Source: Laetmonice hystrix (Eukaryota). Taken from it: a stretch of DNA of 64,000 bases. The stretch spans positions 2,356,001 through 2,420,000 of the forward strand of contig OZ249446.1 of the NCBI GenBank assembly GCA_965235115.1, written 5' to 3'. Position numbers: made by a program. Positions 61,701 through 64,000 of this stretch are shown piece by piece (the first letter of the stretch is position 1; each line of letters starts with the position of its first letter).

Positions 61701-64000
61701 GTGTTTTTTGTTTGTTTTCATCTGTAAATCCTCCTTCATGTCATTTTCCTCAGAAGGTAGATCTCCACCTCGTCATCGTTTATTATTTCGGAAAATGCCG
61801 GGGTTGGAATGCCAAACGAATGCGCTATGTCCGCCATGATGGATTTTGACAAACGCTGTCCACAAACCGCCATCGACTTCGGTACTACCTTCGGGAACCA
61901 TCTTCGCAAACACCGCGTTTGCAGTGGATCATAGGGGCAAAATTTTACTGTCGCGAAGTGCCGTTTCGGGGCGTTCCCGAAGTCCCGCTCCCGAAGTACT
62001 TCGGCAGCGGGACTTCGGGAGCTGCTTTCTCATAGTGGAGCATAGGCATTAGTATGGGACGTTTGGGACTGCAAACAGGGGACAATGTCTTCAGGAGCAA
62101 TGCCAGGGGTCTTCAGCCATGGATGACCTTTTAGTTCAAAGATCAAAGGAATGGGGGTGTCACATCGAAAACTGACCCCCGTGGTAAATTGACCCTCGGG
62201 TCACTTTTCCACAGTGAAAAAGTGACCCTCCCTGTGGTGATCTGACCATCAAGAAAAAGTTAAGACATTTCTTGTTCTGTTTATTTTTTATATTTATGGA
62301 AAGGATACAAAAGGATGTTTTTGTTCACATGTCGTACTCAATTTGTCAATCTGCGCAATTTGCAAAAACTGTTAAATCAAATAGACCTAACCCTAAACTT
62401 ACCTTCACCCTAACCGAGGGGCGTATAGGTAGCACCCGTATCTGCTGGTTTGCCCTTTTAAACTTGCGCAAGTCGCGAAAGTGAGTACTGCTAAACAGGT
62501 GTCAAAACTGTTGAAAAATACCAAGAAGCAGGAAAATGACGATAGATTACGTAAAGACGTTATGCCTAATATCTATGTTATACAACCTGGTTCATTTTTC
62601 CACAGGGGAGGTCACTTTTCCACTGTGGTAAAGTGACCCGGAGGTCGATTTACCACATCCCACCGGCCCAGGCCTGTCGTCTTTGTAACCTTGAATCCAC
62701 AACTGGTGACTAGAGCCCTCACTCTAAAACTGATCGCCTTTCCTTGAAAGGGGCATATTATGAGGAAACGTGAAAAATCGGTATTTCAAAGAACTTTTGC
62801 TGTTTTCATAAAGAGATCCTTCATTAATATTGCTTGGTAAACAAAGACAGACTTATCAGTTTCATTTTGTGTGAGAAATCGAAGTTTATGAAGCTTCCTT
62901 GCCCGCTTTTCTGCCGATTTCGTAAAATATTTTTTAGGTGGCATTCTGATGCCGGACGATCGAGTGCAACTGCTGAATTGTTTACAACTAAGCGAAGCAC
63001 GTGACTAAGCACATGCAGAGAGTGCACACGCAGGATGTGACACAGTATGCAATTACATGGGTTGATGGGAGGTTGTCTATGGCAAATTATGGCGGGAGAT
63101 GTGCTATCGGGAGAAATCTATAGGTTTGGTCGTATAGAACCTACTTGTGCTGCATACGCAGCGAAAACACGTCGGAGGACAAAATGCTGTGGTAGGATTA
63201 TTTACTTGGATCCCTAGTACACGGTCATGTTGGGTTTTTGCCGGAGATCCTCCAAAACGTGTTTTATAGCATGCCCCTTTAATCTATAATATACATTTCC
63301 TGATTTAAACCCTCGTGGACTGATTTTCCTTGTGACCTGTTCTACAATTGTAGATCTTGGTGTCTACCCACGATTGTAGAGTCTATAGAAAAGTACCGGG
63401 TTTATGTATGGCTAATTCTTGAAACCAACTATATTTTGTTGCCACCTGCCGCAGGGTGCCAGGAATGTGACCTGTGTGTTTTGTTGCATGTTGCCACCTG
63501 TCGCAGGGTGCCAGGAATGTGACCTGTGTGTTTTGTTGCATGTTGCCACCTGCCACAGGGTGCCAGGAATGTGACCTGTGTGTTTTGTTGCATGTTGCCA
63601 CCTGCCACAGGGTGCCAGGAATGTGACCTGTGTGTTTTGCTGCATGTTGCCACCTGTCACAGGGTGCCAGGAATGTGACCTGTGTGTTTTGTTGCATGTT
63701 GCCACCTGCCACAGGGTGCCAGGAATGTGACCTGTGTGTTTTGTTGCATGTTTCCACCTGCCACGGGGTGCCAGGAATGTGACCTGTGTGTTTTGTTGCA
63801 TGTTGCCACCTGTCGCAGGGTGCCAGGAATTCGACCTGTGTGTTTTGTTGCATGTTGCCACCTGTCGCAGGGTGCCGGGAATGTGACCTGTGTGTTTTGT
63901 TGCATGTTGCCACCTGTCGCAGGGTGCCAGGAATGTGACCCGTGTGTTTTGTTGCATGTTGCCACCTGTCGCAGGGTGCCAGGAATGTGACCTGTGTGTT

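What the first reader, a model, noticed from the sequence alone, without database searches (positions are those of the whole stretch)
63435..64000. ADH structural-zinc exon start amplified as a satellite; each decoy spells a full Cx2Cx2Cx7C
Seen: with the phase-1 G from 61222, a decoy reads G-C-Q-E-C-D-L-C-V-L-L-H-V-A-T-C-R-R-V-P-G-M-stop. The intron-derived part supplies a fourth Cys at exactly seven residues. There are 11 copies in the window, one lacking the AG. Established: Cx2Cx2Cx7C is the MDR structural zinc site. Inference: the repeat identifies exon 3 beyond the window. The complete spacing may be coincidence, but decoy splicing would give a truncated zinc-binding product.
Basis: partly seen in the sequence, partly recalled or inferred. 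Interest (0 to 1): 0.65.

Follow-up and report, generated by a model that had tools for sequence, protein, structure and literature searches.

The report
Splice-acceptor minisatellite ("mirage") in ADH-like gene
A 52-base stretch spanning the end of an intron and the first bases of the next exon of an alcohol-dehydrogenase-like gene has been copied head to tail at least eleven times, a kind of repeat already described in lancelets as a "mirage", and the complete four-cysteine zinc motif it seems to spell is most likely a coincidence.

Summary
The repeat is real. It is a 52-bp tandem array at 63437-64000 with 10.8 copies and 95% matches, and it runs off the window end. It holds 11 copies of an exon-like start. 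Ten follow AG and one follows GG.

Exon 2 of an MDR alcohol-dehydrogenase-like gene (61094-61222, Pfam ADH_N above cut-off) ends in phase 1. Read from that phase, the copies give GCQECDLCVLLHVATC(R/H)RVPGM-stop. Nine of the 10 fully visible copies spell Cx2Cx2Cx7C. One has Phe for the second Cys.

The first three cysteines sit exactly where relatives place the structural-zinc lobe. The unit is therefore almost certainly a duplicated intron 2/exon 3 boundary.

The fourth Cys comes from G/T-rich acceptor sequence in which about 1 codon position in 5 reads Cys. The loop also lacks the Gly found in 49 of 49 relatives. I read the complete spacing as coincidence.

The window is 27% minisatellite. 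[quoted passage not shown]

The real exon 3, the organism and actual splicing could not be checked. This is a new member of a known kind, of modest interest.

The parts
60370..60523 (+). Exon 1 of an MDR zinc-dehydrogenase-like gene. It starts at ATG 60370 and holds the catalytic-Cys motif CHTDLHF. The end is uncertain: donor GTGATG after 60523, or GTACAA after 60559. Both leave one spare G (phase 1).
   Evidence: Pfam ADH_N scores 16.4 bits at model positions 2-26. The profile of 50 bacterial relatives gives E 1.8e-12, with the alignment ending at ...HFLMGD. The Cys-to-His(GHE) distance would be 19 (short exon) or 31 (long exon), against 21-24 in 51 relatives.
61094..61222 (+). Exon 2, 129 nt, entered and left in phase 1. 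It encodes DAYVGVTPGHEAAGVIESFGGKARPSDYDLSIGDRVCIYPWL plus a spare G. The acceptor is CCCACAG and the donor GTACGT.
   Evidence: Pfam ADH_N scores 25.2 bits (cut-off 23.5) at model positions 33-64 of 104. The best PDB matches are zinc alcohol dehydrogenases 3pii/1rjw, E 0.19, aligned through ...GDRV..PWL.
61223..63436 (+). Unique part of intron 2. It holds two inverted-repeat-bounded (MITE-like) insertions at 61257-62051 and 62181-62656.
   Evidence: No MDR-like ORF lies here. One CxxCxxC at 62352 is followed at once by stops.
63412..63416 (+). CTAAT, one of only two strict YTNAY branch-point-like matches in 63380-64000. It lies about 39 nt upstream of the first AG of the array. None lies inside the array.
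   Evidence: This is a consensus match only. Its function is inferred.
63437..64000 (+). 52-bp minisatellite with 10.8 copies visible, cut by the window end. Each unit is acceptor-side intron sequence (...TGTTGCCACCTGYCRCAG) followed by an exon-like start (GGTGCCAGGAATGTGACCTGTG...).
   Evidence: Ungapped homology with the unique left flank starts at 63437. With a 7-nt gap it reaches back to TATATTTTGTTGC.
63455..63520 (+). First exon-like copy (decoy 1). With the spare G of exon 2 it reads GCQECDLCVLLHVATCRRVPGM, then TGA.
63765..63766 (+). Copy 7 has GG in place of the acceptor AG, so that 3' splice signal is lost.
63830..63832 (+). Copy 8 has TTC in place of TGT, so the second Cys of the motif becomes Phe. 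The same change removes the stop of copy 7's reading.

Best explanation
The array is a 'mirage'-type minisatellite: a tandem duplication of the intron 2/exon 3 boundary of an MDR (zinc alcohol-dehydrogenase-like) gene. It arose by slippage or unequal exchange in a genome that makes minisatellites at a very high rate.

Each 52-bp unit carries the last 18-32 bases of the intron with its AG. It also carries the first 20-34 bases of the exon that encodes the start of the structural-zinc lobe (G-C-Q-E-C-D-L-C).

Because the unit includes the acceptor, the gene need not be broken. The last copy, beyond the window, can continue into the real exon 3. All earlier copies are dead-end acceptors that meet a stop after 22 codons.

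The fourth Cys at x7 comes from G/T-rich acceptor sequence and is a coincidence, not a zinc site.

Shown: the array, its register, the AGs, the phase, the reading, and its fit to the position of the zinc lobe.

Inferred: that the true exon 3 follows the last copy, that the gene is alive, and that decoy use is rare or is cleared by nonsense-mediated decay.
For: 1. Array: period 52, 10.8 copies, 95% matches. There are 11 exon-like starts in strict register.

2. Host gene: exon 2 passes the Pfam ADH_N cut-off (25.2 against 23.5 bits) and exon 1 matches the same model. Exon 1 finds 52 bacterial/archaeal MDR loci.

3. Continuity: exon 2 ends in phase 1, and the AG plus phase-1 reading gives G then CxxCxxC. 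In a profile of 50 relatives, exon 2 aligns to positions 63-91 and the decoy cysteines to 97/100/103/111. The four residues YPWL plus the split Gly fill positions 92-96 with no gap. 49 of 52 relatives have Cx2Cx2Cx7C at that place.

4. Not chance: only 6 CxxCxxC occur outside the array in about 127,000 six-frame codon positions.

5. Setting: 30 arrays cover 27% of the window.

6. [quoted passage not shown]

7. Fourth Cys as coincidence: TGY starts at 10 of 52 unit positions. The loop has Leu where 49 of 49 relatives have Gly, and its residues at 4 of the 7 loop positions are seen in 0-1 of 49 relatives.

8. Turnover without constraint: there are 9 variable unit positions, including loss of an AG, Cys to Phe, Gln to Arg and Leu to Pro. 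All four combinations occur at two CpG-linked sites.
Against: - The real exon 3 is not in the window, so derivation from it is inferred, not seen.
- On sequence score alone the decoy is not recognisable. It has no Pfam or PDB match. It scores E = 10 against the profile of relatives, no better than an unrelated ORF at 40962-41060.
- The decoy has Gln after the first Cys where 48 of 49 relatives have Gly. Either this protein is atypical or the copies have drifted.
- The only strict branch-point consensus lies upstream of the first copy. A simple first-AG rule would therefore favour a decoy, not the last copy.
- The organism was not identified by any search, so the link to amphioxus mirages is by likeness only.
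- The copy number of such arrays can be wrong in assemblies. The globin paper says this of one mirage in the genome draft.
Confidence: 0.8

Rival explanations
1. The decoy acceptors are used and matter. Splicing from 61222 into the array either yields a truncated N-terminal fragment with a four-Cys zinc knuckle, or tunes expression through unproductive splicing and nonsense-mediated decay.
For: - 10 of 11 copies keep CAG, with the same upstream tract (pyrimidine fraction 0.64-0.68).
- The best branch-point match lies upstream of copy 1.
- 9 of 10 readable copies keep all four Cys.
Against: - The loop lacks the Gly present in 49 of 49 relatives.
- Cys is expected at about 1 codon in 5 here.
- The copies vary without regard to the reading: AG lost, Cys to Phe, Leu to Pro.
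- The product would lack most of the catalytic domain and the whole Rossmann domain.
- Passages on amphioxus mirages report no aberrant mRNAs.
Confidence: 0.05
2. The gene is a dead or dying copy. The array marks a decaying locus, and no intact exon 3 follows it.
For: - Only two exons are visible.
- The spacing from the catalytic Cys to GHE fits relatives with neither candidate donor: 19 or 31 against 21-24.
- The first Cys is followed by Gln instead of the near-invariant Gly.
- Intron 2 holds two transposon-like insertions.
Against: - Exons 1 and 2 are open, with ATG, canonical GT/AG sites and intact CHTD and GHE motifs.
- A mirage by its structure leaves one functional boundary.
Confidence: 0.1
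3. It is an unrelated minisatellite that resembles an ADH exon start by chance.
For: - The window holds 30 arrays.
- The unit is G/T-rich and Cys-rich in every frame.
- The profile score of the decoy is at noise level.
Against: CxxCxxC is rare: 6 in about 127,000 codon positions outside the array. Here it follows an AG in the phase left by exon 2, on the right strand, at the exact residue distance from GDRV seen in relatives. My rough estimate of the joint chance is below 1 in 1000. That figure is inferred, not simulated.
Confidence: 0.04
4. The array is a coding repeat on the minus strand, where the frames stay open through it.
For: - Minus-strand ORFs 63383-64000 and 63412-63999 are open.
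- One gives a whole-sequence Pfam score of 27.8 bits for Phage_fiber_C, cut-off 25.
Against: - No single stretch passes in that Pfam match (0 stretches). The score is a sum of weak matches over identical repeats.
- The period of 52 is not a multiple of 3.
- The minus strand is T-poor, so stops are expected to be scarce.
Confidence: 0.01

Closest known systems
'Mirage' minisatellites of amphioxus (Adh3, per Canestro et al. 2002 as cited; globin genes BflGb6/BflGb9, Ebner et al. 2010, PMC3087553)
   Same: - Head-to-tail duplications whose unit spans an intron-exon boundary and repeats the splice signal.
- BflGb6 duplicates the 3' end of an intron plus the 5' part of the next exon, the same side as here.
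- Adh3 units are given as 10-72 bp, and 52 bp falls inside that range.
- Some units lose the AG/GT.
- Copies show local homogenisation (passages read).
   Different: - The host gene here is another MDR dehydrogenase, not class III Adh3. NCBIfam places exon 1 nearest bacterial-type families, all far below cut-off.
- At least 11 copies are seen, against 3-6 for BflGb6.
- The authentic copy and the organism are not visible here.
- The 2002 paper itself was not held. I know it only through the citing passages.
Tandem repeats over splice sites in lancelet PGBD5 and troponin C (PMC3902484)
   Same: Tandem repeats that coincide with 5' or 3' splice sites, yet are said not to give aberrant mRNAs (passage read).
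   Different: The PGBD5 repeats are 60 and 108 bp, few in number and imperfect. This array is long and 95% uniform.
Structural-zinc lobe of MDR alcohol dehydrogenases (Cx2Cx2Cx7C)
   Same: The Cys spacing of the decoy equals that of 49 of 52 relatives fetched here. The first three Cys are in the expected place.
   Different: The x7 loop is unlike any relative: Leu for the invariant Gly, and loop residues V, T and L seen in 0-1 of 49. It is supplied by acceptor-side sequence and followed by a stop.

Membership tests
Mirage minisatellite (tandem duplication of an intron-exon boundary) | Head-to-tail array with a minisatellite-sized unit | tested here: met
   Period 52, 10.8 copies, 95% matches, no indels. 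Register shown.
Mirage minisatellite (tandem duplication of an intron-exon boundary) | The unit contains the splice signal plus adjoining exon sequence of the host gene | tested here: inconclusive
   10 of 11 units carry CAG followed by a reading that continues exon 2 in phase and in residue count. The authentic exon 3 needed for direct comparison lies outside the window.
Mirage minisatellite (tandem duplication of an intron-exon boundary) | One edge copy is the authentic boundary used in the mRNA, and regular splicing is kept | not testable with these tools
   The array runs off the window at 64000. No transcript data were available.
Mirage minisatellite (tandem duplication of an intron-exon boundary) | Described so far in cephalochordate genomes | not testable with these tools
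   No tool here names the source of a eukaryotic window. Rfam and tRNA scans were empty. The 27% minisatellite content is only suggestive.
MDR zinc-dependent alcohol dehydrogenase (Pfam ADH_N, PF08240) | GroES-like ADH_N domain above the curated cut-off | tested here: met
   Exon 2 alone scores 25.2 bits against a cut-off of 23.5. Exon 1 scores 16.4 bits, below cut-off, at adjoining model positions. The exons were searched one by one.
MDR zinc-dependent alcohol dehydrogenase (Pfam ADH_N, PF08240) | Catalytic-zinc ligand motifs (Cys in CHTD, His in GHE) | tested here: met
   CHTDLHF in exon 1 and PGHEAAG in exon 2 are aligned to the same motifs of relatives.
MDR zinc-dependent alcohol dehydrogenase (Pfam ADH_N, PF08240) | Genuine structural-zinc lobe C-G-x-C-x-x-C-x-x-G-x-x-x-x-C in the protein | tested here: inconclusive
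   Only decoy copies are visible. They have the Cys spacing in 9 of 10, but Gln for Gly at position 2 (Gly in 48 of 49 relatives) and Leu for Gly at position 10 (Gly in 49 of 49).
MDR zinc-dependent alcohol dehydrogenase (Pfam ADH_N, PF08240) | Rossmann-fold nucleotide-binding domain | tested here: not met
   No ORF of the window other than exons 1 and 2 matches the profile of 50 relatives (next best E 1.9). The domain is not in the window, so this says nothing about the whole gene.

The most novel reading that the evidence does not exclude
The multiplied acceptors are not silent. Exon 2 is spliced into decoy copies often enough that array length, which should vary between individuals and perhaps between tissues, sets the output of this dehydrogenase through unproductive splicing. 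Alternatively, it yields a short N-terminal fragment ending in a four-Cys knuckle. Either would turn a minisatellite into a heritable, mutable dial on a gene.
Probability: 0.05. Interest if true: 0.55.

Novelty: new member of a known kind. Interest (0 to 1): 0.27.

Why it matters
It is a clean, long example (at least 11 copies) of a splice-boundary minisatellite in a gene where none is reported in the papers I could search.

- **Annotation:** gene predictors can pick any of ten equivalent acceptors and report a truncated protein. The apparent 'zinc motif' is a trap.
- **Evolution:** such arrays are the raw material of one published model of intron gain (passage).
- **Splicing:** the locus offers eleven near-identical 3' splice sites in a row. 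The only consensus branch point lies upstream of the first. This makes a natural test of how the correct AG is chosen.

None of this is surprising to a specialist who knows the amphioxus mirages.

Tried and rejected
1. The decoy peptide (21 residues, from the first whole codon) found nothing in Pfam or the PDB. It is too short, and the motif rests on Cys only.

2. Rfam and tRNA scans of the whole window were empty. They gave no help on the organism.

Exon 1 was sent instead. The 52 relatives are bacterial or archaeal, at 38-76% identity over 17-61 residues of exon 1. None has the PWLG context, so they inform only the general shape of the zinc lobe.

4. A search for other MDR exons or a paralogue in the window with a local profile found none.

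5. A search for the unit elsewhere in the window found none outside the array.

6. I tried to settle the end of exon 1 by the Cys-to-GHE distance. Neither donor fits (19 or 31 against 21-24), so it is left open.

7. I tried to fix where exon-derived sequence ends inside the unit. Ungapped and 7-nt-gapped alignments to the left flank give 34 or about 20 exon-derived bases. This is unresolved without the right end of the array.

8. The minus-strand coding reading was rejected.

9. The Canestro 2002 paper was not held.

10. The spliced model (exon 1 + exon 2 + decoy) was not joined for any search or fold. The exons were searched one by one.

11. I do not take the contig for human. It is 27% minisatellite, and its dehydrogenase exons are nearest bacterial-type MDRs.

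12. The protein collections, the metagenome and viral contigs and the paper supplements were closed. Eukaryotic relatives of the gene and the mirage alignments in the globin paper's additional files stayed unseen.

Full report
**1. What is there**

The last 564 bases of the window (63437-64000) are a tandem array of a 52-bp unit. It has 10.8 copies, 95% matches and no indels, and it runs off the window end.

Laid out in register, the rows differ at only 9 unit positions. A 22-base exon-like start occurs 11 times, at 63455+52k, with 0-2 mismatches. It occurs nowhere else in the window, and none of 100 shuffles gave a match.

Ten of the 11 starts follow CAG. The one at 63767 follows CGG.

**2. 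The host gene**

Upstream on the same strand lie two exons of a medium-chain (MDR) zinc-dehydrogenase-like gene.

- **Exon 1** starts at ATG 60370 and carries CHTDLHF. It can end after 60523 (donor GTGATG) or after 60559 (donor GTACAA). Both leave one spare G.
- **Exon 2** is 61094-61222, 129 nt. It encodes ...PGHEAAGVIESFG...GDRVCIYPWL and again leaves one spare G before GTACGT.

The exons were searched one by one:

- Exon 2 passes the Pfam ADH_N cut-off (25.2 against 23.5 bits, model positions 33-64 of 104).
- Exon 1 matches positions 2-26 at 16.4 bits.
- The nearest solved structures to exon 2 are zinc alcohol dehydrogenases (3pii/1rjw, E 0.19), aligned through GDRV..PWL.
- The NCBIfam matches are all bacterial-type MDR families, far below cut-off.

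The joined, spliced model was deliberately not built, searched or folded.

**3.

Of the 10 copies that can be read to their end, 9 spell Cx2Cx2Cx7C. The copy at 63819 has Phe for the second Cys. The eleventh is cut by the window end. 'Each decoy' is therefore slightly overstated.

**4. Is the exon-likeness more than chance?**

Yes, for the first three cysteines.

- Outside the array, CxxCxxC occurs 6 times in all six frames of the window, about 127,000 codon positions.
- Here it follows an AG, on the gene's strand, in the phase left by exon 2.
- Exon 1 retrieved 52 bacterial/archaeal relatives. 49 of the 52 have GHE followed by Cx2Cx2Cx7C.
- In a local profile of 50 of those 52, exon 2 aligns to positions 63-91 and the decoy cysteines to 97, 100, 103 and 111. 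YPWL and the split Gly fill positions 92-96 without a gap.

Against this, the decoy ORF on its own scores only E = 10 in that search. That is no better than an unrelated ORF at 40962-41060. It also matches nothing in Pfam or the PDB. The case rests on the conjunction of place, strand, AG, phase and spacing, not on sequence score.

The same profile finds no other MDR exon in the window (next best E 1.9). The rest of the gene must lie beyond 64000, if it exists.

**5. The fourth cysteine**

It is encoded by the acceptor-side part of the unit (ACC TGY CRC AG).

- The unit is G/T-rich. TGT or TGC starts at 10 of its 52 positions, and at 7 of the 33 between the exon-like part and the next AG. A Cys at any one codon is about a 1-in-5 event. 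The window-wide rate is 3.5% per position.
- The x7 loop also does not look like a zinc lobe. It has Leu where 49 of 49 relatives have Gly. Its V, T and second L are seen in 0-1 of 49.

One caution applies. This protein is atypical already in its certain exon part, with Gln after the first Cys where 48 of 49 relatives have Gly.

**6. How the array relates to the original boundary**

The unique left flank joins the array at 63437, 18 bases before the first AG. If a 7-nt gap is allowed, the homology runs back to TATATTTTGTTGC.

So 20 to 34 bases of each unit are exon-derived, and 18 to 32 are intron-derived. Only the right end of the array can settle this.

Variation among the copies shows turnover without regard to the reading:

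- One AG is lost, and there are Cys to Phe, Gln to Arg, Leu to Pro and Ala to Ser changes.
- Two CpG-linked sites occur in all four combinations.
- The left and right halves of the array carry different variants.

**7. Setting and precedent**

The window is extraordinarily rich in minisatellites. Thirty merged arrays cover 17,235 of 64,000 bases, or 27%.

Tandem duplications that span intron-exon boundaries are a described class. The passages I read say the following:

- In PMC3087553: amphioxus globin gene BflGb6 has minisatellite-like duplications of the 3' end of an intron plus the 5' part of the next exon. Such repeats were first reported in amphioxus Adh3 and named 'mirages'. Units range from 10-72 bp (Adh3) to about 160 bp. 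Many but not all units keep AG/GT. RT-PCR suggests regular splicing is not disturbed. One mirage was wrongly assembled in the genome draft.
- In PMC3902484: the same is said for Adh, troponin C and PGBD5.

The original 2002 paper was not held. The supplements with the mirage alignments were closed.

No call identified the organism. I do not take the contig for human. The likeness to lancelet genomes is suggestive only.

**8. How it most likely works**

Slippage or unequal exchange duplicated a 52-bp (perhaps first 45-bp) segment across the acceptor of exon 3, and the array then expanded. Because each unit brings its own AG, the last copy can still serve as the true boundary. The coding capacity survives.

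All earlier copies are potential acceptors that lead to a stop 22 codons on, upstream of later exon junctions. Any such transcripts should be cleared by nonsense-mediated decay. That last step is inferred from general knowledge.

One point speaks for some decoy use. The only strict YTNAY matches near the array (TTTAT at 63401, CTAAT at 63412) lie upstream of copy 1. All copies share the same acceptor tract. Which AG is chosen is an open and testable question.

**9. Rivals**

| Rival | Confidence | Main points |
|---|---|---|
| Functional decoys or a truncated zinc-binding fragment | 0.05 | Discussed in sections 5 and 8 |
| Dead gene | 0.10 | The odd Cys-to-GHE spacing (19 or 31 against 21-24 in 51 relatives) and two transposon-like insertions in intron 2 speak for it. 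Open exons with intact motifs speak against. |
| Chance resemblance | 0.04 | See section 4 |
| Minus-strand coding repeat | 0.01 | The Pfam hit has no single passing stretch and is a sum over repeats |

A wrong copy number from assembly is compatible with the main reading.

**10. Verdict**

The derivation from the exon 3 boundary is well supported but not seen directly. The zinc-site reading of the decoys is not supported.

This is a new member of a known kind, the mirage minisatellite. Searches for the term with amphioxus and minisatellite returned only the two papers above, neither on this gene. I claim nothing wider than that about what is in print. Interest is modest.

Noticed in passing
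window 1-64000: Thirty separate tandem arrays (periods 17 to 380 bp) cover 27% of the window. Many create long artefactual ORFs in several frames.
   Followed up: partly
window 61257-62051 and 62181-62656: Two inverted-repeat-bounded, MITE-like insertions lie in intron 2 of the ADH-like gene. Their arms are 35 nt at 77% and 57 nt at 88% complementary. The first is rich in nested CCCGAAGG-type palindromes.
   Followed up: partly
window 25199-25660 (+); perhaps also 20001-20516 (+): There is an exon of a Patched/sterol-sensing-domain protein (Pfam PF12349, 50.3 bits; Patched SSD 21 bits, below cut-off). The ORF at 20001-20516 looks like part of the same kind of gene but has no Pfam match.
   Followed up: partly
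window 59230-59619: A 50-bp array of 7.8 copies lies about 750 bp upstream of the ADH-like start codon, in the presumed promoter region. It is not a boundary duplication.
   Followed up: no
window 60370-60559; loci L001-L052: Exon 1 of this eukaryote-style, intron-bearing gene is 38-50% identical over about 50 residues to MDR dehydrogenases of marine and soil bacteria, sharing CHTDLHF. The best NCBIfam model is NDMA-dependent ADH, far below cut-off. Whether the family is an old one or a transfer was not examined.
   Followed up: no
window 60524 vs 60560: Two in-phase donors could end exon 1. Neither gives the Cys-to-GHE spacing of relatives (19 or 31 against 21-24), so the exon 1 boundary is open.
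   Followed up: partly
window 63386-64000 (-): Minus-strand frames stay open through the array. They give a whole-sequence Pfam score above cut-off for Phage_fiber_C with no single passing stretch. This is an example of repeat-summed false matches.
   Followed up: yes
window 15225-15974 (+): A 249-residue open frame rich in RYPDR/GGPRYPEGNRDGYPDRY repeats overlaps 87-, 36- and 30-bp arrays. It has no Pfam match, and it is unclear whether it is coding.
   Followed up: no
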